From IMG/VR virus record IMGVR_UViG_3300037246_000452, positions 25,219 through 89,218 of that record: a stretch of DNA of 64,000 bases. One strand, written 5' to 3'. The notes under the pieces were generated by a model. That model was not told the origin of the DNA and ran no database searches. It saw nothing but the letters and a program-made list of their open reading frames with translations. The position numbers and the translations under genes are program-made. This DNA comes from a virus. Shown in pieces: positions 6,880 through 38,955 of this stretch. Each line of letters opens with the position of its first letter. Positions within the stretch are counted from its first letter, which is position 1.

Positions 6880-7401
6880 TAACCCTCGTCCTCCTTCGTC
6901 AGTCTCGCCATTGTCAGTGCAGATATAACCTCACATATCTTGCTACGCGCTTTTAGAAGATGACCTCTTGGTCTCAGTTGCTTCTCCGCTTCTATCCTAT
7001 CTTCCAAATGCCTTTTGGTAATCTCTGCCTCTGCCAGTATATCTGCATAAGGTATGCTCATGAGCCCTCCTTACGGTATTCTTCCATAATTTTAATACAA
7101 CCTTTCAGACTTATTAGAGCACTCAGTTTATGGGGCACATACCTCGCACATGATCGATTCTGATAACAGCCTTTAGCTACACAGGCGGGGGCAGGTGTAC
7201 CTATCTCACATCGGCCTCCACAGGTATAAGCACTTAGGTTAAAGTACTGCTCTCGATAGGGGTCTCTCTGCTTAAGGTTCGGAATAAAGAGGTGTCTTTC
7301 TGGTATCTCTGCTCCAGTAAGTACATCAAATACTTTACCCTCCCGCTTCATCCCAAACTTACTACCTGTTACCTTTGAGATTATCCTTAACTTTTCAAGC
7401 A

Positions 7402-8115
7402 TCAGTCCTCCTCCTTATCTTCCGTATGTTCTATTACTCCAGCAAGATCGTAATCTCCGTTTTTAATAGCTTTCAAGCCAGTGGCCTGTACTACATGAGT
7501 GATATGAGCATCTATCTCGCCCTTGGCCTCCATCACAGTCTGGTCTACCTGCTTATTAAATTGTTGTTCTACAAATGGGATATCTGAGGTTATATGCTGC
7601 TTTAACATTTGCACTGATCTGAGTATCTCTTCAAGATCACCCTTGCCGGCCTTACCTTTCTTTAGTTGTTCCTGTATCTTCTCAATAGTATCATCCGCCT
7701 TGCTCCCTATGCCATGCATACTTTTCTTGAATTCATGGGAGAACTCCGCACGTTTACTAATGGTTTCACATCTTTCCATGGCAATCCCATCAACCCTATC
7801 TATAGTACAAGGAACTCCATCCCCGACACCCATATTAGTCATCGCTTCCGCAAATTGTGTGTACGACATAGACACTTCGACAATAGGTGGGCCATTACCT
7901 CCACTACTTGGCCAGTCCTTATGTAGGTGCCGGTTCATATGCGCTCTTGATATCTTTAGCGTGATGTAGTTACTATGCTTAATGGACGACCCGAACATTT
8001 CTGCCGGTGGATTACATTGAACTCTGGAGAACCCTACTAACCCATAGGATTCATGTTGGTATTCCAATTCCTCACCCCCACCACAAGCCTTCTTCTTTAC
8101 TATTTTAATTGCCAT
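7402..8115 (-). CDS. conserved hypothetical phage protein
   Basis: 237-aa ORF, HESYG..FGSSIKH..EVSMS..QFAE..G.GVPCT. Confidence 0.75.
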   Translation of the reverse strand: MAIKIVKKKACGGGEELEYQHESYGLVGFSRVQCNPPAEMFGSSIKHSNYITLKISRAHMNRHLHKDWPSSGGNGPPIVEVSMSYTQFAEAMTNMGVGDGVPCTIDRVDGIAMERCETISKRAEFSHEFKKSMHGIGSKADDTIEKIQEQLKKGKAGKGDLEEILRSVQMLKQHITSDIPFVEQQFNKQVDQTVMEAKGEIDAHITHVVQATGLKAIKNGDYDLAGVIEHTEDKEED

Positions 8116-26270: not shown

Positions 26271-26711
26271 TTAAATTGCATTATACCATTGACCTTCTAG
26301 TGTATTCATGGCCGTTGTCTTCGCGCCTTTGTCTTTGCCTAGAAGTTTTGCCTTTACCTTCTGTAGCAGTCCCACTTGATGCTTCGTGTAGCACCTATGA
26401 GGTGTATCGAATATCTGTGAGGGTATCCAATTCTTTTGCTCCCAGATCAGGAGAAGCTTAGTAGTAATCCCAAGTCTGTTTGCCACGGTCCTTGCCTTGT
26501 AAGCCAGTATTTCTTTACCGTTATACTCTTTCCTACTCATCCCGGCAGGTGGCTTAATGCTGGCCTTATACTCCCGAGCTTTCTTTTTTAATAGCTCCCT
26601 GTGCTCCGGGTCGTTGTCATACTTATCCTTCCTGTCCTTCGCAATCGTAACTTTGTTATTAATGTAATGCTGTTTATGTGAAAACCCATTACCATTTTTA
26701 TGTCGTCCCAT
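26271..26711 (-). CDS. MerR-like HTH protein
   Basis: VANRLGITTKLLLIWEQKNWIP....HRCYT..QV. Confidence 0.6.
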   Translation of the reverse strand: MGRHKNGNGFSHKQHYINNKVTIAKDRKDKYDNDPEHRELLKKKAREYKASIKPPAGMSRKEYNGKEILAYKARTVANRLGITTKLLLIWEQKNWIPSQIFDTPHRCYTKHQVGLLQKVKAKLLGKDKGAKTTAMNTLEGQWYNAI

Positions 26712-31850: not shown

Positions 31851-33965
31851 TCAATCCAGAAATAACATATCATCGGTATTTTCCATAACTTCTTGAAAAT
31901 TCATTAAATTAAAATCCCAGTTTATATTGAATCCACCTACCTCACCATTCCTACCTTTGAGAATGTTTACTTTTCTCTGCATTTTGGTTGCGATGCTCTC
32001 CTCCTCCAATAGACCTAGAACTATAGTGCTGAGCTGACCAATAGCATCTGAATACCCAATATCCTCAAGTCCTATATCCTCTCCTTTACTTGCCTTCATT
32101 TTCTTGGCTGCGTCCCTGTTAAACTGGTAGCTGCAGATTGTCGGGATTCCAAGATCGGTTGCCAATGCTTGCTTTATAAGTTCCGCATTCTCATCAATCC
32201 TTGCAAACTTATTCATTCTCTTATCTGGGTGCTTTAGTAGGTATGCTCCATCGATGATAAGGGCTCCCGGTTTCAACTGTTTACATAGTGCCCAGATATC
32301 CTCAACTGTAGCTGTGAGGTTACCATCTACAATCCAGCAAGGGACTGGATGATCTTCCATCAGTTTCAAGCCATGAGTCATCTGCTTATACCCTGCTGTA
32401 GACAAGGCTGCTTGTTTGATATGAGTTAATGGTTTATGGGTATGCATTGCCGCCACTCGTTGTATCAAGGGTAAGGGCGTCATTTCCATTGAGACCAGAA
32501 GCGTTGGGCGTTTCATCTTACTCCATATGTAATGCATAATGAATAAGAGAAGAAATGTCTTTCCTGAATTGTGTGTAACAAATCCTTCAGCTATAAAGTT
32601 ATTGTAAGGGTCGGCACATACTAAGTCATAAGTATCTTCCATCCCAAATAATTCAATACTTATTATTTTCTCTGCATGTACCAAATTCTGTCCGAAACGA
32701 CTTCTAGTCCCCTCATACCCCATCCCTGCACCGTGCTCTTTACCATGCTCTGAGTTTGTCAATAATCCTAAATTCGATACAGCATTGTTATTAGTATCCT
32801 CATCTTTATGATGTATATGCAACGAGCTTTCAGAGAATACAAAACCGTGATTTGGGTTCGTTTTCAATTGCTGAATAAAGTCTTGGAGGTTAACTCCATT
32901 TAGGGCTGCGTCATAATTAGCTCGCTGCTCTAGTACTCTATGGTATACACACCCATTTATAACTCTGGTGGGATAAGGGGCGTAGGGCATCTTTGTACAA
33001 ATCTCTTTTCTGTAGCGTCCAGTTTGTTTATAACCTTTTCCAGTATCAGGAGCTTTACATATTACCTCGTCGCCTACTACTAAATCTCCCAAAGGCCTAA
33101 AACCATTAGGTGTCATAAACATGTGGTCTGTGGTTGCCCTTACTACTTTTCCCGATTCCGTAGTAACAGTGTATGTCTCCTTCTTTCCAGAGTACACAAT
33201 ATCTTCGACTATGTTAAGCCCTGTCAAGTCGTCGTCCATCAAAGATTGTACTCTCGTGGGGATACTTAAATCCCACTTTCTAGCACCCCTTCCTTGTTTA
33301 GCGGTTTTTCCATGCATTCCTCGGTATACCTCTTTGAGGGTGTAATACCTCCCACTACCTTTTGATTTTCTGGAGATATAAAGTTTTGTATCACCGGATA
33401 AACAAGCCGGCCGGCCCACGATAGATATAACGTCTCCCGGCATTAAACCCCCGGTCATCTTGTCGAGGTAATCCCATCCGGTATTGATTCCGTAGTCGTC
33501 CCCAAACTTCATCTTTTCTTTATATTCTTTGGTGATAATATCACAAGCATGCCTAAAGTCTACCAGTTGAGTACCGTACTTCTTAACTGTGAGGCCTGTT
33601 AGTATCCCTGTAAGCATTTCAATGGCTTGGCCAGGGTTCATGTTCTCTTTGGTCAAGAACATCTTTGCTTCGTCGAATCCTTGCTTCAAGGCATTATGAA
33701 AATATCTATCCTTTACCTTGTCGGCATAGAATGAGGCCGGTTCAATGGCCTTTGGCAATATAAGGTCTTCAAACTGATTTTCTACTGTGGCCATCTTTGG
33801 GATAGTACCGTGATCATGGATGAAGTTCTTTATATAACCATGCAACTCCAACTCTGTGGGGCGCAGATAATCTGTATCTATACAAAGCTTGACGAATGAT
33901 TCAACATCACCTTCCTTGATAATGGATGAAATTAATTGCAATCCTATCGAACTCTTCTTAATCAT
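31851..33965 (-). CDS. dnaB: replicative DnaB-like helicase containing an intein
   Basis: TGW..LD.MTGG; Walker A GRPA|SGKT split by the intein; SMEM; IDGAYL; QFNR; SDAIGQ; KGRNGE. Confidence 0.92.
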   Translation of the reverse strand: MIKKSSIGLQLISSIIKEGDVESFVKLCIDTDYLRPTELELHGYIKNFIHDHGTIPKMATVENQFEDLILPKAIEPASFYADKVKDRYFHNALKQGFDEAKMFLTKENMNPGQAIEMLTGILTGLTVKKYGTQLVDFRHACDIITKEYKEKMKFGDDYGINTGWDYLDKMTGGLMPGDVISIVGRPACLSGDTKLYISRKSKGSGRYYTLKEVYRGMHGKTAKQGRGARKWDLSIPTRVQSLMDDDLTGLNIVEDIVYSGKKETYTVTTESGKVVRATTDHMFMTPNGFRPLGDLVVGDEVICKAPDTGKGYKQTGRYRKEICTKMPYAPYPTRVINGCVYHRVLEQRANYDAALNGVNLQDFIQQLKTNPNHGFVFSESSLHIHHKDEDTNNNAVSNLGLLTNSEHGKEHGAGMGYEGTRSRFGQNLVHAEKIISIELFGMEDTYDLVCADPYNNFIAEGFVTHNSGKTFLLLFIMHYIWSKMKRPTLLVSMEMTPLPLIQRVAAMHTHKPLTHIKQAALSTAGYKQMTHGLKLMEDHPVPCWIVDGNLTATVEDIWALCKQLKPGALIIDGAYLLKHPDKRMNKFARIDENAELIKQALATDLGIPTICSYQFNRDAAKKMKASKGEDIGLEDIGYSDAIGQLSTIVLGLLEEESIATKMQRKVNILKGRNGEVGGFNINWDFNLMNFQEVMENTDDMLFLD
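32568..33404 (-). mobile_element. intein (279 aa) with an HNH endonuclease domain
   Basis: Starts CLSGDT; block B ATTDHMF; block F/G TYDL....NNFIAEGFVTHN followed by Ser; internal IHHKDEDTNNNAVSNL. Confidence 0.92.
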
Positions 33966-35653: not shown

Positions 35654-36619
35654 TCATACTTTACCCTCCTTCTCTAATTGTTCAAGTTCTTCCAGTGTCA
35701 TAGGTTTATGCTCTTTCAGTTCCACCACCTTTGGCTTCTCCTTCTTTGGTTGTGCAGTTAATTGCAAACCAGTCTTCTTTCCTGCCTCAGTCAAGGCATC
35801 TACATTTTGCTTCATCCATGCTATTGCCAGTTCAGTGTTTGAAAGCAGGAATCCGAGGATAGGTTTATCGGGGGGAGTCTTCATCCCTAGACTGTCCTTA
35901 CAGTGCATATGGAAGTCTATCCACCGGGGGATAATATACTCCACCATAGGTAAAACATCATTCCCTCCTTTTCGTATCATGTCTTTAAAGTTCCGGGTAT
36001 CTTTCATTGTAAAAGTCAGATACTCAACTCCCTGTGTTTCAATCATCAGCTGCCGGTAAGTTTCCTTTACCTGATTTAGAGGTGACATCTTCTTTACCTG
36101 CTCCTCTTTATTCTTCTTGAATTGCTCTATCATAGAACTTGCTCCGCCCTTCGTATACTTCATAAACTCCTCCGCTATTTCTTTTTTTGTTTTACTAGAA
36201 AGGAGGTCGCCTTCTCTATAAGCCTTCTCTACTAGCCTTATAAGCCTTTGGGTGGCAGTGTGCAACATATCCATTGCATAGTGCGACTCCTCTAAGGCAG
36301 TGTGCAACATATCCGTCTCACTGTGCAACATACTAATAGTCTCACTCTGCGACTTATATGATGCACCCTGCAACTGCTCAGTATCAAGAGAATACGTTAC
36401 ACTTTTAGATTTTCCAGATACCGTAACCCATCCATTCTTCTTAAGACTTGTGAGTGCTCTGAACACCGTGGACCTATCCATACCCATGAACTTTGCTATA
36501 GTGTCTACAGAAGGCCATGCCTTGCCTTCCTCATTAGCATAAGTGGCCAGTACCTGTAGCACCATCTTCTCCGTACCTTTCAAGTCTGAATCTAATACCA
36601 GCTTGTTCCACTTAAACAT
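35654..36619 (-). CDS. replication initiator protein (N-terminal winged HTH)
   Basis: L.G.EKMVL..LATYAN....AWPS..TIA...GM.R.TV.RAL..L...GW; internal iterons. Confidence 0.8.
   Translation of the reverse strand: MFKWNKLVLDSDLKGTEKMVLQVLATYANEEGKAWPSVDTIAKFMGMDRSTVFRALTSLKKNGWVTVSGKSKSVTYSLDTEQLQGASYKSQSETISMLHSETDMLHTALEESHYAMDMLHTATQRLIRLVEKAYREGDLLSSKTKKEIAEEFMKYTKGGASSMIEQFKKNKEEQVKKMSPLNQVKETYRQLMIETQGVEYLTFTMKDTRNFKDMIRKGGNDVLPMVEYIIPRWIDFHMHCKDSLGMKTPPDKPILGFLLSNTELAIAWMKQNVDALTEAGKKTGLQLTAQPKKEKPKVVELKEHKPMTLEELEQLEKEGKV
36254..36375. repeat. iterons, putative replication origin inside the initiator gene
   Basis: ggcagtgtgcaacatatcc twice (36254, 36296), plus gtctcactgtgcaacata and gtctcactctgcgact variants. 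Confidence 0.75.
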
Positions 36620-36647
36620 ATTTTCCTTTTTGCAATTAGTTTCAATC

Positions 36648-36749
36648 TTTAATAGACACAGGATACAGCTTTAGTCGCTACAACATAATGCCAGAGGACT
36701 ATCCCCTGTGGTGTTCTGTTAGTCACCTATATATCCTATGCCTATTAAA
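36648..36749 (-). ncRNA. structured RNA in the 5' region of the initiator gene
   Basis: 20-bp closing stem that is fully paired only on the minus strand (3 G-U pairs), enclosing two hairpins. Confidence 0.55.
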
Positions 36750-36753
36750 AAGA

Positions 36754-36893
36754 TGATCGGGGCAGGATTCGATACCTGCAAGGTACTAAACGTGTACTTA
36801 GCCTTTCCCTACTTCACCCTAACCTCGTAATGATTAACCGCCGTAGCTGTTAAACCCTCATAGTAGTGATGCGTTACCTTACGCTACCCGATC
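36754..36893 (-). ncRNA. tRNA-like RNA with an expanded, anticodon-less central domain
   Basis: Acceptor GATCGGG/CCCGATC-A; T8A9; D arm GCGT-AAGGTA-ACGC; T arm GCAGG-TATCGAAT-CCTGC; about 90 nt between the arms. Confidence 0.7.
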
Positions 36894-36909
36894 ATATTAA
36901 ATTTAACTC

Positions 36910-37680
36910 CTACTGCTCAGTAGGTTTCTTCTCATCCTTCTCAGTCTGGGCCTTATGCTCATCACTGGGAGTAGCCGTAACCTCTTCATTTTCTGCATCA
37001 AGCAATACCGCATCACTTGCACCGTCTGCCGTTTGCTCCACAGTAACGGTAGTGTCTTCTGCTAGGGCAAGTTGAGAATCTTCCATGCCACCGGGAACCT
37101 CTTTAGCGAAGTGGAGCGTTTCCAGCATCTTTGTGTAATCCGTACTGTAGTTGCCTTCCTCAATCTCTACATTGCCAAAGTACTGCTCAAGGATTGTGAG
37201 GTACCTTTCTATAGAGTAGTCCTTGAGGAGCTGTTTACGGTACTGGCAGCATTGCGCTTCGTCAATCATGGCAGAGCTTAAGGCCACCACTGTCTCTGCA
37301 AAGGGGCCATCCTGCAGTGCTCTCATCAATACCTTTACACCTTCTTGGCCCCCCGGTATCTTCATAAAGCTTTCTATACCAAAGAAGCATGAGCCTCTTC
37401 TTCTGACGTTATCAAGCTTGGCAAACTTAATGTCAGGAAATACCTCTTTGATAAGGGCTACAACATCCTGTACATCATTATCCTTCTCAGGAGCAAACCT
37501 AACCCTTGAACCAATCATTATGCTGGCTCCATCAACCTCAAGTACAGGCTTATAGCCAACCCTGAGACCTCCCTTCTTTCCGAGCACTAGATAGTCAAGG
37601 TTTCCCTCTGTGCCTATCATGAGCTCGAAATCACTGATGTCTATCTTTTTCGTTCCTTCTTGCAACTGCTTATCATCCAT
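36910..37680 (-). CDS. hypothetical protein
   Basis: 256-aa ORF directly after the AAA ATPase. Confidence 0.75.
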   Translation of the reverse strand: MDDKQLQEGTKKIDISDFELMIGTEGNLDYLVLGKKGGLRVGYKPVLEVDGASIMIGSRVRFAPEKDNDVQDVVALIKEVFPDIKFAKLDNVRRRGSCFFGIESFMKIPGGQEGVKVLMRALQDGPFAETVVALSSAMIDEAQCCQYRKQLLKDYSIERYLTILEQYFGNVEIEEGNYSTDYTKMLETLHFAKEVPGGMEDSQLALAEDTTVTVEQTADGASDAVLLDAENEEVTATPSDEHKAQTEKDEKKPTEQ

Positions 37681-38890: not shown

Positions 38891-38955
38891 TTGTCCTCCC
38901 TGACTTTTTGATTATATAAACATCTTAGCAAGTTTAATCAGGTTTGTCAAGTTAA

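What the first reader, a model, noticed from the sequence alone, without database searches (positions are those of the whole stretch)
36754..36893. Anticodon-less tRNA mimic with a long insertion capped by a cUACGg tetraloop
Seen (minus strand): perfect 7-bp acceptor stem GAUCGGG/CCCGAUC plus discriminator A, U8A9, a D arm with GG, and a T arm GCAGG-UAUCGAAU-CCUGC with an 8-nt loop; no encoded CCA. In place of the anticodon arm is an extended arm of about 57 nt (UCAC...GUGA closing; UUAAC-A-GC-UACG-GC-G-GUUAA at the tip), followed by a variable region of about 34 nt with its own hairpin. No canonical 7-nt anticodon loop or tmRNA-like G3-U70 is present. Inference: a tRNA-elbow mimic that could act as an RNase P/Z processing signal for the replication transcript, a decoy for tRNA-targeting defence nucleases, or a new ncRNA class.
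Basis: partly seen in the sequence, partly recalled or inferred. Interest (0 to 1): 0.8.

Follow-up and report, generated by a model that had tools for sequence, protein, structure and literature searches.

The report
Anticodon-less tRNA-shaped RNA in phage
A marine-sediment phage carries a 140-base gene for an RNA that keeps the frame of a tRNA but has two large extra arms and no anticodon. It is built like the unexplained "tRNA-like stable RNAs" of phages T5 and T4, so it is a real and conserved new member of an old puzzle, not a new class.

Summary
On the minus strand, 36893-36754 has a 7-bp acceptor stem, U8 A9, a D arm with GG, a T arm with an 8-nt loop, a 56-nt arm in the anticodon position, a 34-nt variable arm and no CCA.

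It is tRNA-derived. A covariance model of it finds true tRNAs as its next-best hits, skipping a roughly 44-nt anticodon insert, a roughly 29-nt variable insert and one extra T-loop base. It is not a decoder: default ARAGORN and Rfam find nothing, and no 7-nt loop with U33 exists. ARAGORN's "tRNA-Phe with intron" call is a forced fit.

It is under selection. Contigs from four other sediment and seep studies match only the interior (36761-36884) at about 87-94% identity, with unrelated flanks. Their acceptor stems are different but still paired (5 of 7 pairs swapped). Interior changes mostly preserve pairing.

T5 RNA1 and RNA2 show the same layout, and T4 species 1 RNA a similar one. One distant relative has an unrelated insert-bearing tRNA at the same gene slot.

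My best reading is a stable tRNA-framed small RNA cut out by tRNA-processing enzymes; the partner of its arms is unknown. This scan has noted similar RNAs in other phages. It is a new member of a known kind, of moderate interest.

The parts
36754..36893 (-). The whole tRNA-shaped RNA gene, 140 nt (139 nt plus discriminator A)
   Evidence: Sequence. The fold gives the cloverleaf. The covariance model scores 175 bits on itself and finds true tRNAs as its next hits.
36887..36893 (-). Acceptor stem, 5' strand GAUCGGG. U at 36894 can add an eighth pair with A at 36754.
   Evidence: The pairing can extend to 12 nt with one mismatch (inverted repeat I4). Other family members carry UGCGGUG or (U/G)GGGGUG here, with matching 3' strands.
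36755..36761 (-). Acceptor stem, 3' strand CCCGAUC. Discriminator A at 36754. No CCA is encoded.
   Evidence: Relatives have CACCGCA or CACCCCA here, one of them followed by CCA (loose ends).
36871..36884 (-). D arm GCGU-AAGGUA-ACGC, preceded by U8 A9 at 36886-36885
   Evidence: It aligns to the D arms of the T5 tRNA-Arg and the phage's own tRNA-Pro. No substitution was listed here in any laid contig.
36814..36869 (-). Long irregular arm in the anticodon position, 56 nt: a 5-bp base, a 3-nt bulge, further short helices and a tip hairpin. It has no 7-nt loop with U33.
   Evidence: Fold. Substitutions in other metagenomes that keep pairing: U29.G76 to U-A, G37.U64 to G-C, G35-C67 to G.U.
36834..36853 (-). 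Tip hairpin UUAAC-A-GC-UACG-GC-G-GUUAA, the most variable part
   Evidence: C45-G56 changes to U-A on both sides in contigs from two studies. A46.G55 changes to C-G. One haplotype (X3 record 6) is re-registered by indels. A44 to U breaks one pair.
36780..36813 (-). 34-nt variable region with a 4 + 6 bp hairpin
   Evidence: Fold. G92.U109 changes to A-U and C93-G108 to U.G; the loop positions 98 and 99 vary.
36762..36779 (-). T arm GCAGG-UAUCGAAU-CCUGC, with an 8-nt loop (canonical UUCGAAU plus one A)
   Evidence: The covariance-model alignment to true tRNAs needs a 1-nt gap at this A. No change was listed here in the contigs that cover it.
36909..36924 (-). Hairpin CCUACUGAGCAGUAGG that includes the stop codon of the upstream 256-aa ORF, 15 nt before the element
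   Evidence: Terminator-like site. ORF coordinates.
36620..36753 (-). Adjacent second structure and leader of the replication-initiator gene. Its 22-bp outer stem uses the U-run that directly follows the element.
   Evidence: Fold z = -4.94, with 0 of 200 shuffles folding as well. Inverted repeat I1. The initiator ORF is 35654-36619 and matches HTH_36 and DnaD_N.
38922..38950 (-). Nearest good sigma-70-type promoter (TTGACA-17-TAAGAT, with TG), upstream of the AAA ATPase gene. It is the likely source of the transcript that carries the element.
   Evidence: No comparable promoter lies between the 256-aa ORF and the element.

Best explanation
The stretch is a gene for a non-decoding small RNA derived from a tRNA. 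It keeps the acceptor stem, D arm and T arm, and therefore probably the L-shaped frame. Three insertions mark it: about 40 nt in the anticodon loop, making a long irregular arm; about 29 nt in the variable region, making a second hairpin; and one base in the T loop.

Inferred steps:
1. It is transcribed as the tail of the ATPase/ORF256 operon and as the head of the initiator leader.
2. The host's tRNA-processing enzymes cut it out: RNase P at G1, and RNase E/Z or exonucleases at the 3' side.
3. It accumulates as a stable RNA of about 140 nt.
4. As a by-product, the cut separates the upstream mRNA from the initiator mRNA, which then begins with a very stable stem.

The working part is the pair of inserted arms. 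The acceptor stem only has to pair. What the arms bind is unknown. A host or phage protein that handles tRNA is the most likely kind of partner.

It is the same kind of molecule as T5 RNA1 and RNA2 and T4 species 1 RNA.
For: Shown here:
1. The anatomy is as described.
2. The core is homologous to tRNA. Model R1, built from the element alone, finds the T5 tRNA-Arg and the phage's own tRNA-Pro as its next-best matches over positions 1-140, with local skips of 44-45 and 29-31 positions and a 1-nt T-loop gap.
3. It is not a decoder. Default ARAGORN and Rfam find no tRNA, even at E up to 10. The only candidate loops, ACUAUGG and GUGAAGU, have C33 or need an intron at position 30/31 and an A.G mismatch in the stem.
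4. It is under selection. Contigs from four other studies match only 36761-36884 at about 87-94% identity, with flanks that do not lay at 80% or more. One of them lies inside a 77-kb contig.
5. Three acceptor types are seen: GAUCGGG/CCCGAUC, UGCGGUG/CACCGCA and (U/G)GGGGUG/CACCCCA. They differ at up to 5 of 7 pairs and stay Watson-Crick.
6. Of the substitutions at paired interior positions, leaving aside one haplotype re-registered by indels, six keep the pair through a one-sided change, one pair is changed on both sides, and one is broken.
7. Seven G.U pairs exist only on the minus-sense strand.
8. T5 RNA1 and RNA2 show the same architecture and size, and T4 rnaC a similar one without a recognisable D arm. 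Like the element, they are at or below Rfam's tRNA threshold.
9. A distant relative, L049, carries an independent insert-bearing tRNA between the equivalent genes. Rfam tRNA scores it 43 bits with a 45-nt insert in the anticodon loop.

Context: all genes run on the minus strand. There is no own promoter by the consensus scan, and the nearest promoter lies upstream of the ATPase gene.
Against: - No RNA data. No RNA run holding this stretch could be found, so transcription, ends and stability are inferred.
- The relatives are known only as differences and 30-nt loose ends of short Logan contigs, most of them single and at low depth. No full alignment and no R-scape-type statistic could be made. 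For the third acceptor type, the 5' and 3' strands come partly from different contigs.
- The fold energy alone is not significant (z = -1.54).
- The element lies outside the phage's tRNA cluster and lacks CCA, unlike the phage's two tRNAs, its second tRNA mimic and the T5/T4 RNAs.
- No binding partner or target was found. There is no complementarity to the phage genome beyond chance.
- One laid 151-nt contig at depth 2 (X2 record 3) matches only the 3' 82 nt and carries a different 5' part, so the architecture may vary between members or that contig may be chimeric.
Confidence: 0.62

Rival explanations
1. It is only a cis-acting processing and stabilising signal ('tRNA punctuation'). The tRNA shape recruits RNase P/Z to cut the polycistronic RNA between ORF256 and the replication-initiator gene. 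The excised piece has no function of its own.
For: - It sits between a stop-codon hairpin and the strongly folded initiator leader and has no promoter of its own.
- L049 carries a tRNA-like element in the same slot, between the ORF stop and a terminator.
- The acceptor stem is free to change as long as it pairs, which is what RNase P needs.
Against: - Processing needs only the acceptor/T minihelix and the elbow. Here the two inserted arms are conserved at about 87-94% in contigs whose flanks are unrelated, with pair-preserving changes.
- L051, a nearer relative of L049 (upstream protein 84% identical), does without any such element at the same site.
- None of 48 related viral genomes has a copy of this element's type.
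Confidence: 0.17
2. It is a decaying tRNA pseudogene: a former decoder that has accumulated insertions and now has no function.
For: - The core is clearly tRNA-derived.
- The T loop has an extra base, no CCA is encoded and no anticodon exists.
- The fold energy is not exceptional.
- No homologue was found in IMG/VR, JGI metagenomes, GTDB genomes or the INPHARED phage records.
Against: - The insertions themselves are shared and conserved in at least four other lineages from four studies, while the flanks are unalignable.
- Substitutions keep the pairing, including one double change in the tip hairpin and five in the acceptor stem.
- The 8-nt T loop shows no listed change in the contigs that cover it, which is not what decay would give.
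Confidence: 0.07
3. It is a true decoding tRNA with an intron. It would be either tRNA-Ile(UAU) with a 39-nt intron at the canonical 37/38 site, or ARAGORN's tRNA-Phe(GAA) with a 47-nt intron at 30/31. It would be spliced in the host.
For: - ARAGORN with the intron option calls tRNA-Phe(GAA) i(31,47).
- The 5' side ACUAUG is invariant in all laid contigs, and most variation falls inside the would-be intron.
- The L049 element reads as a GAA loop interrupted after position 37.
- In both elements the interior of the anticodon stem is 46 nt long.
Against: - Both readings have C33 in place of the near-universal U33, and G37.
- The Phe reading needs an A.G mismatch in the stem and an 8-bp acceptor, and its 'anticodon' changes to GAG or GCG in relatives (i80 and i81).
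- There is no bulge-helix-bulge motif: the central helix has only 3 pairs and there is no 5' bulge.
- 39-47 nt is far too short for a group I intron, and Rfam finds none.
- The host is bacterial by the phage's genes (bacterial RecA, DnaB, DnaG-type primase) and its sigma-70-type promoter consensus sites. From established knowledge, bacteria have no protein tRNA-splicing endonuclease.
- A 34-nt variable arm and an 8-nt T loop do not fit any decoder.
Confidence: 0.04
4. It is a DNA-level feature such as a replication origin, an initiator operator or an attachment site, and not an RNA.
For: - It lies 135 nt upstream of the replication-initiator gene, beside an 18-nt inverted repeat with repeated TAGG motifs.
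- Phage attachment sites often copy parts of tRNA genes (established knowledge).
Against: - Seven G.U pairs would be A.C mismatches on the other strand.
- Changes pass through G.U intermediates.
- Both halves of the tRNA are present.
- No tyrosine-type (Phage_integrase, PF00589) integrase gene was found in the complete genome; serine recombinases were not searched.
- The conserved interior occurs in unrelated flanks.
Confidence: 0.03

Closest known systems
Phage T5 RNA1 (144 nt) and RNA2 (125 nt), annotated in AY543070 as 'tRNA-like stable RNA with unknown functions'
   Same: - The predicted layout is the same: an acceptor-like closing stem, a D arm, a long irregular arm of about 55-60 nt in the anticodon position, an extra hairpin in the variable region and a T arm (compared).
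- The size is the same (125-144 nt against 140 nt).
- The T arm of RNA2, GCAGG-UUCGAAU-CCUGU, is nearly that of the element.
- T5 RNA1 also falls below Rfam's tRNA threshold (24 bits against a cut-off of 29).
   Different: - There is no detectable sequence homology outside the tRNA core; model R1 does not hit them at E up to 10.
- The T5 RNAs lie inside the tRNA gene cluster and have 7-nt T loops.
- The element lies in the replication module, has an 8-nt T loop and no CCA.
- The stability of the T5 RNAs was shown experimentally, according to the annotation. Nothing is known for this element.
Phage T4 species 1 RNA (rnaC, 139 nt) and species 2 RNA (rnaD, 119 nt)
   Same: - rnaC is 139 nt with a canonical T arm, a long hairpin of about 60 nt and a second hairpin before the T arm.
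- The function is unknown.
- It is not recognised as a tRNA by Rfam.
   Different: - The T4 RNAs follow the tRNA-Arg gene in the tRNA cluster.
- rnaC has no recognisable D arm and an imperfect closing stem in the predicted fold.
- There is no sequence similarity.
Canonical bacterial and phage tRNA (Rfam RF00005), including the phage's own tRNA-Pro and tRNA-Asp
   Same: - 7-bp acceptor stem, U8 A9, a 4-bp D stem with GG in the loop, A at position 26, a 5-bp anticodon-type stem, a 5-bp T stem, UCGAA in the T loop and a discriminator.
- The model of the element aligns end to end to true tRNAs.
   Different: - No 7-nt anticodon loop, no U33, a 34-nt variable region, an 8-nt T loop and no CCA.
- No RF00005 hit even at E up to 10, and no default ARAGORN call.
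Insert-bearing tRNA at the same gene slot in the distant relative L049 (IMGVR_UViG_3300027533_000013, 7324-7433)
   Same: - It lies directly after the stop codon of the gene that precedes the replication-initiator gene, on the same strand.
- It has a 7-bp acceptor stem, U8 A9, a 4-bp D stem with a 6-nt loop, and a 5-bp stem enclosing 46 nt.
   Different: - The insert is unrelated in sequence (alignment score at the mean of shuffles).
- It has a normal 5-nt variable loop, a degenerate T loop (UCAACGC) and no GG in the D loop.
- It passes Rfam's tRNA threshold (43 bits), whereas the element does not.
- The genes upstream of the two elements show no detectable similarity.
- It is absent from the nearer relative L051.
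tmRNA, and the YrlA/Y-RNA-like tRNA mimics
   Same: These are non-decoding RNAs that copy the acceptor/T-arm part of a tRNA.
   Different: - tmRNA: no ARAGORN tmRNA call, no G3-U70, no tag reading frame, and the element is too short.
- YrlA: from established knowledge, its ends lie in the Ro-binding stem at the anticodon side and its acceptor end is closed. The element has the opposite topology. There is no Rfam hit.

Membership tests
Canonical decoding tRNA (RF00005) | Cloverleaf with a 7-bp acceptor stem, a D arm, a T arm and conserved U8, A14, G18 G19, A21 | tested here: met
   The alignment of model R1 to true tRNAs covers all four stems.
Canonical decoding tRNA (RF00005) | A 7-nt anticodon loop with U33 on a 5-bp stem | tested here: not met
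   The 5-bp stem UCACU/GGUGA encloses 46 nt. Every 7-nt reading has C33 or needs a non-canonical intron. The variable-arm loop is 6 or 8 nt.
Canonical decoding tRNA (RF00005) | Score above Rfam's gathering threshold, or a call by ARAGORN at default settings | tested here: not met
   No RF00005 match at E up to 10 in 651 nt. ARAGORN at default settings finds none in the window.
Canonical decoding tRNA (RF00005) | A 7-nt T loop (T-psi-C-R-A-N-N) | tested here: not met
   The loop is UAUCGAAU, 8 nt. A 1-nt gap is needed in the alignments to tRNAs.
Intron-containing tRNA (archaeal/eukaryal bulge-helix-bulge type, or bacterial group I type) | A bulge-helix-bulge motif (two 3-nt bulges around a 4-bp helix) at the exon-intron borders | tested here: not met
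   Only a 3' bulge (UAG) next to a 3-bp helix is present, with no 5' bulge. In L049 no such pairing exists at all.
Intron-containing tRNA (archaeal/eukaryal bulge-helix-bulge type, or bacterial group I type) | A group I intron core (roughly 200 nt or more, helices P3-P9) | tested here: not met
   The insert is 39-47 nt, and Rfam finds no intron family.
Intron-containing tRNA (archaeal/eukaryal bulge-helix-bulge type, or bacterial group I type) | A host that has a tRNA-splicing endonuclease | tested here: inconclusive
   The host is unknown. The phage genes are of bacterial type (RecA, DnaB, DnaG-type primase) and the promoter-like sites match the sigma-70 consensus, which argues for a bacterium.
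Phage tRNA-like stable RNAs (T5 RNA1/RNA2, T4 species 1) | 120-145 nt, with a closing acceptor-like stem and a tRNA-type T arm | tested here: met
   140 nt, compared with the folds of the T5 and T4 RNAs.
Phage tRNA-like stable RNAs (T5 RNA1/RNA2, T4 species 1) | Anticodon arm replaced by a long irregular arm, plus an extra hairpin before the T arm | tested here: met
   A 56-nt arm and a 34-nt variable region with its hairpin. The T5 RNA1, T5 RNA2 and T4 rnaC folds show the same two features.
Phage tRNA-like stable RNAs (T5 RNA1/RNA2, T4 species 1) | Encoded inside the phage's tRNA gene cluster and made from the tRNA precursor | tested here: not met
   The phage's tRNAs lie at genome 16985-17149. 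The element is at genome 61972-62111, in the replication module. A second mimic of this genome does lie near the tRNAs.
Phage tRNA-like stable RNAs (T5 RNA1/RNA2, T4 species 1) | Accumulates as a stable RNA in infected cells | not testable with these tools
   No run on record as RNA holds the stretch, and the phage is uncultured.
Phage tRNA-like stable RNAs (T5 RNA1/RNA2, T4 species 1) | Sequence homology to the T5 or T4 RNAs | tested here: not met
   Model R1 does not hit them at E up to 10, and blastn against the phage records finds nothing. The class is defined by build, not by common descent.
tmRNA | A tRNA-Ala-like end with G3-U70, a tag reading frame and pseudoknots | tested here: not met
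   ARAGORN in tmRNA mode finds none. Pair 3-70 is U-A. The only AUG opens a 3-codon frame whose stop codon is not conserved.

The most novel reading that the evidence does not exclude
The element represents a family of phage RNAs that use a tRNA frame as a chassis: any paired acceptor stem gives processing and stability. The chassis displays a strongly conserved two-arm module of about 90 nt. That module would act in trans, for example as a decoy or sponge for a host factor that recognises the tRNA elbow and anticodon stem (a tRNA-cleaving defence nuclease, a modification enzyme or a translation factor). Alternatively, it would be a signal that couples expression of the neighbouring replication initiator to the state of the tRNA-processing machinery. 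If so, it would give a first handle on what the 50-year-old T4 and T5 'stable RNAs' do.
Probability: 0.18. Interest if true: 0.75.

Novelty: new member of a known kind. Interest (0 to 1): 0.45.

Why it matters
Non-decoding tRNA look-alikes have been known in T4 and T5 since the 1970s and have never been explained.

This case adds comparative facts that the classical examples lack:
- The inserted arms, not the acceptor stem, are the part under selection. The interior is about 87-94% identical across sediment and seep contigs with unrelated flanks, while the acceptor stem has been fully re-paired.
- Such RNAs also occur outside tRNA clusters, here at an operon end next to a replication-initiator gene.

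This points to a trans-acting role for the arms. It also defines simple experiments: processing by RNase P, pull-down of partners, and deletion of the arms.

For annotation, it shows that standard tRNA finders and Rfam miss this kind of gene, and that ARAGORN's intron mode mislabels it as tRNA-Phe.

Tried and rejected
Searches for homologues that found nothing:
- blastn of the intergenic region and megablast of the 8-kb neighbourhood against 50,697 phage records.
- Exact-pattern scans with 22-26-mers of the T arm/acceptor, the invariant interior and a relative's flank: IMG/VR, JGI metagenomes and GTDB genomes.
- A D-arm signature pattern in IMG/VR. It gave 43 hits, all of them chance matches in coding sequence except the L049 contigs.
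- Model R1 over 48 whole related viral genomes at E up to 1.
- blastn against E. coli genomes, to test complementarity or similarity to rRNA or tRNA.
- This scan's sequence index, which returned only this genome.

Protein routes to closer relatives:
- The best hit to the ATPase is 43% identical.
- The initiator gave no hit.
- The 256-aa ORF found only itself.

RNA evidence: no RNA holder was listed for the stretch, so nothing can be said on expression.

Ideas considered and dropped:
- MAFFT alignment of the element with the L049 element misaligned the 3' half, so no joint model was built.
- Shared 6-7-mers between the two elements (UAACAGC, GUAGGG, GAAGUA, CUAUGA) are about what chance gives, and the inserts align no better than shuffles.
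- An antisense target in the phage: the longest complementarity is 12 nt, which is the chance level.
- A CsrA sponge: the element has only one GGA, and the phage's CsrA-like hit is weak (18.8 bits, below the cut-off).
- A hammerhead-like core: CUAUGAG lacks the essential G, and Rfam finds nothing.
- A mini-ORF AUG-AGG-GUU-UAA: its stop codon is not conserved.
- A primer for reverse transcription, a substrate of a phage-encoded CCA-adding enzyme, or an attachment site: the genome has no reverse transcriptase, CCA-adding enzyme or tyrosine-type integrase by the Pfam families searched.
Full report
WHAT IS THERE

The window is bases 25219-89218 of an 89,218-bp IMG/VR virus genome with direct terminal repeats, rated complete. 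It is a tailed phage: its genes include a tape-measure-type protein, a PKD-repeat tail protein, bacterial-type RecA, a DnaB helicase with an intein and a DnaG-type primase. Nearly all long ORFs are on the minus strand. The only full-length public holder is a marine-sediment metagenome.

The finding lies in a 290-bp gap. On one side is a 256-aa ORF (36910-37680, no known family). On the other is a replication-initiator gene (35654-36619; HTH_36, DnaD_N, PHROG 'replication initiation').

- GAUCGGG, then UA;
- GCGU-AAGGUA-ACGC, then A;
- a 56-nt arm closed by UCAC/GUGA;
- a 34-nt variable region with a hairpin;
- GCAGG-UAUCGAAU-CCUGC;
- CCCGAUC, then A, then UCUUUUU with no CCA.

The unconstrained fold gives this cloverleaf.

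IS IT MORE THAN CHANCE?

The folding energy alone is not remarkable (z = -1.54). The combination of features is. A strict scan asked for a 7-bp acceptor stem, a 4-bp D stem, and a 5-bp T stem directly abutting the acceptor with T[CT][GA]A in the loop. In the real genome it finds only this element and the true tRNA-Pro. It finds 0.33 hits per first-order Markov resample of the genome. That count leaves out U8A9, the GG in the D loop and the intergenic position. The comparative data below settle the point.

IS IT A tRNA?

Its core is. A covariance model built from the element alone (R1) finds, after itself, the T5 tRNA-Arg and the phage's own tRNA-Pro. Both align from position 1 to 140 through all four stems. 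The alignments skip three things:
- 44-45 positions inside the anticodon stem;
- 29-31 positions in the variable region;
- one base (A) in the T loop.

The element is therefore a tRNA with three insertions. The nucleotides that build the tRNA core and elbow are kept: U8, A14, A15 with U48, G18 G19, A21, and UCGAA in the T loop (the roles of these positions are established tRNA knowledge).

It is not a decoder:
- Default ARAGORN finds no tRNA in the window.
- ARAGORN in tmRNA mode finds nothing.
- Rfam finds nothing at the gathering threshold, and no tRNA-clan match even at E up to 10 in a 651-nt search.

With introns allowed, ARAGORN calls 'tRNA-Phe(GAA)'. This call needs a 47-nt intron at the non-canonical 30/31 position, an 8-bp acceptor stem, an A.G mismatch in the anticodon stem and a 26-nt extra arm. 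In related contigs that 'anticodon' changes to GAG or GCG. The alternative reading puts a 39-nt intron at the canonical 37/38 site and gives the loop A-C-UAU-G-G, with C33 and G37. No bulge-helix-bulge motif is present. The insert is far too short for a group I intron. The phage's genes point to a bacterial host, which by established knowledge has no protein splicing endonuclease. I rate the intron reading at about 4%.

RELATIVES AND SELECTION

Sequence searches of phage records, IMG/VR, JGI metagenomes and GTDB genomes found nothing. The phage's proteins have no close relatives either: the ATPase is at most 43% identical to anything, and the initiator and ORF256 have no relatives.

Laying Logan contigs of four other runs on 36300-37200 was informative. 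These were marine sediment, cold seep and one unlabelled run, from four studies.

Contigs from all four runs match only the interior of the element, 36761-36884. This is the D arm, the long arm, the variable arm and the T arm. Identity is about 87-94% (7-14 differences in about 88-124 nt). The sequence on both sides does not lay at 80% or more. One such match lies at 26303-26421 of a 77,345-nt contig. A fifth contig (X3 record 7) continues into the end of ORF256 and is a closer relative of this phage.

The loose ends show what replaces the acceptor stem:
- Type B (X2, X4): 5' UGCGGUG-UG-GCGU... and 3' ...CACCGCA.
- Type C (X3, X4, X5): 5' (U/G)GGGGUG-UG-GCGA... and 3' ...CACCCCA, followed by CCA.
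- The window: GAUCGGG and CCCGAUC.

Between the window and type B, five of the seven pairs are changed on both sides and all remain Watson-Crick. Types B and C differ by one more double change (C3-G70 against G3-C70).

Inside, no change is listed in sense positions 10-42, which are the D arm and the 5' side of the long arm. At paired positions the listed changes are:
- U29.G76 to U-A
- G37.U64 to G-C
- G35-C67 to G.U
- A43-U58 to G.U
- G92.U109 to A-U
- C93-G108 to U.G
- C45-G56 to U-A, changed on both sides, in two studies
- the A46.G55 mismatch to C-G
- A44 to U, which breaks one pair

One divergent haplotype re-registers the tip hairpin by two deletions. Seven G.U pairs exist only in the minus sense. 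So the RNA is read from the minus strand, its helices are maintained, and the insertions are old, shared and conserved. That is the opposite of a decaying pseudogene.

Caveats. These relatives are known only as difference tables and 30-nt loose ends of mostly short, low-depth contigs. No statistical covariation test was possible.

AN INDEPENDENT PARALLEL

Seventy loci of distant relatives were fetched through the neighbouring AAA ATPase gene, at 31-49% protein identity apart from one weak partial match at 25%. Only one lineage has a tRNA-shaped element in the same slot: L049, and L050, which is 99.7% identical to it. The element follows directly after the stop codon of the gene that precedes the initiator gene.

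Rfam's tRNA model scores the L049 element at 43 bits, with a 45-nt insertion in the anticodon loop. Its insert is unrelated in sequence to that of the window. R1 does not detect it. The nearer relative L051, whose upstream protein is 84% identical, has no such element at the site. These are therefore separate acquisitions or frequent losses, not one conserved feature of the phage group.

I did not check it.

COMPARISON WITH WHAT IS KNOWN

The T5 record annotates RNA1 (144 nt) and RNA2 (125 nt) as 'tRNA-like stable RNA with unknown functions'. The T4 record annotates rnaC, species 1 RNA (139 nt).

The predicted folds of T5 RNA1 and RNA2 have the same order of parts as the element: closing stem, D arm, an irregular arm of about 55-60 nt, an extra hairpin and a T arm. 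T4 rnaC has the closing stem, the long arm, the extra hairpin and the T arm, but no recognisable D arm. T5 RNA1 reaches only 24 bits on Rfam's tRNA model, and T4 rnaC reaches 17.5 bits on tRNA-Sec. So the known examples are missed in the same way.

The element differs from them in four respects. It lies outside the tRNA cluster. It has no CCA. It has an 8-nt T loop. It shares no sequence with them beyond the tRNA core. It is a new member of this loosely defined kind, not a new class.

The same genome holds another such RNA next to its tRNA genes: a tRNA-Leu-type mimic at genome about 14.8-14.9 kb.

HOW IT MOST LIKELY WORKS

Shown: the anatomy, the tRNA ancestry, the lack of an anticodon, the strand, and the conservation of the inserted arms against free compensated change of the acceptor stem.

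Inferred:
- The consensus scan finds no promoter between ORF256 and the element. The nearest good one (TTGACA-17-TAAGAT) is upstream of the ATPase gene. The element is therefore probably transcribed with that operon.
- A hairpin covers the ORF256 stop codon 15 nt before the element.
- The U-run after the element is not a free terminator tail. It forms one side of a 22-bp stem of a second, very stable structure (z = -4.94) that leads to the initiator's ribosome-binding site.
- RNase P would cut at G 36893. An endonuclease or exonucleases would trim the 3' side. The excised RNA of about 140 nt would be as stable as a tRNA. The initiator mRNA would be left with a protective 5' stem.
- Processing needs only the acceptor/T helix and the elbow. 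The strong conservation of the two inserted arms in unrelated contexts therefore argues that the excised RNA itself has a function, and that the arms are its working surface.

Not known: what the arms bind. I found no antisense target in the phage. There is no similarity to E. coli RNA genes. The phage has no reverse transcriptase, CCA-adding enzyme or tyrosine-type integrase by the Pfam families searched. A tRNA-binding host factor is a reasonable guess and no more.

VERDICT

It is a new member of a known kind. Interest is moderate, because the kind itself is an old unsolved problem and this family offers comparative leverage.

Noticed in passing
window 36620-36753 (-): The leader of the replication-initiator gene folds into a very stable structure (-42.5 kcal/mol, z = -4.94, 0 of 200 shuffles as good). 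A 22-bp outer stem encloses three small hairpins. One strand of the outer stem is the U-run that directly follows the tRNA-like element. The structure also contains an 18-nt inverted repeat with repeated TAGG motifs, so it could equally be an operator or origin at the DNA level.
   Followed up: partly
genome 14803-14910 (-), = L116:804-911, about 10.3 kb before the window: A second anticodon-less tRNA mimic in the same phage. It has a tRNA-Leu-type D arm (GGCGGAAUUGGUAGACGC), UUCG- and GAAA-capped hairpins in place of the anticodon arm, and an encoded CCA. Neither ARAGORN nor Rfam calls it. Its D arm resembles that of T5 RNA1.
   Followed up: partly
genome 14930-14996 (-), = L116:931-997: A 67-nt hairpin rich in G.U pairs, ending in CCA followed by UUUU, just upstream of the second mimic (fold z = -1.63). 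It may be a minihelix-type RNA processed together with its neighbour.
   Followed up: partly
genome 15911-15991 (-), inside L117: A weak CsrA-like match (PF02599, 18.8 bits, below the cut-off of 27) in a 101-aa open frame between the second mimic and the two true tRNA genes.
   Followed up: no
L049:7324-7433 (+), also L050:5125-5233: A tRNA with a 45-nt insertion in the anticodon loop (Rfam tRNA 43.2 bits). The loop reads U-C-GAA-G before the insert, the T loop is degenerate (UCAACGC) and the D loop has no GG. It lies between the stop codon of a 279-aa ORF and an intrinsic terminator. It is absent from the closely related L051.
   Followed up: partly
window 31851-33965 (-): The DnaB-type replicative helicase gene is interrupted by an intein with an HNH endonuclease domain (Pfam Intein_splicing and HNH_3 inside DnaB_C).
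   Followed up: no
window 36754-36835, contig X2 record 3: One 151-nt, low-depth sediment contig matches only the 3' 82 nt of the element, keeping the same acceptor 3' strand. Upstream it carries a different sequence that repeats the motif AGGGAAAGGCU(U)AAGU of the variable arm. This is either a member with a duplicated module or a chimeric assembly.
   Followed up: no
relatives G013, G015, G021, G024: Four of the roughly 48 distant relatives of this phage group are classed by IMG/VR as proviruses. The window's phage has direct terminal repeats and no tyrosine integrase.
   Followed up: no
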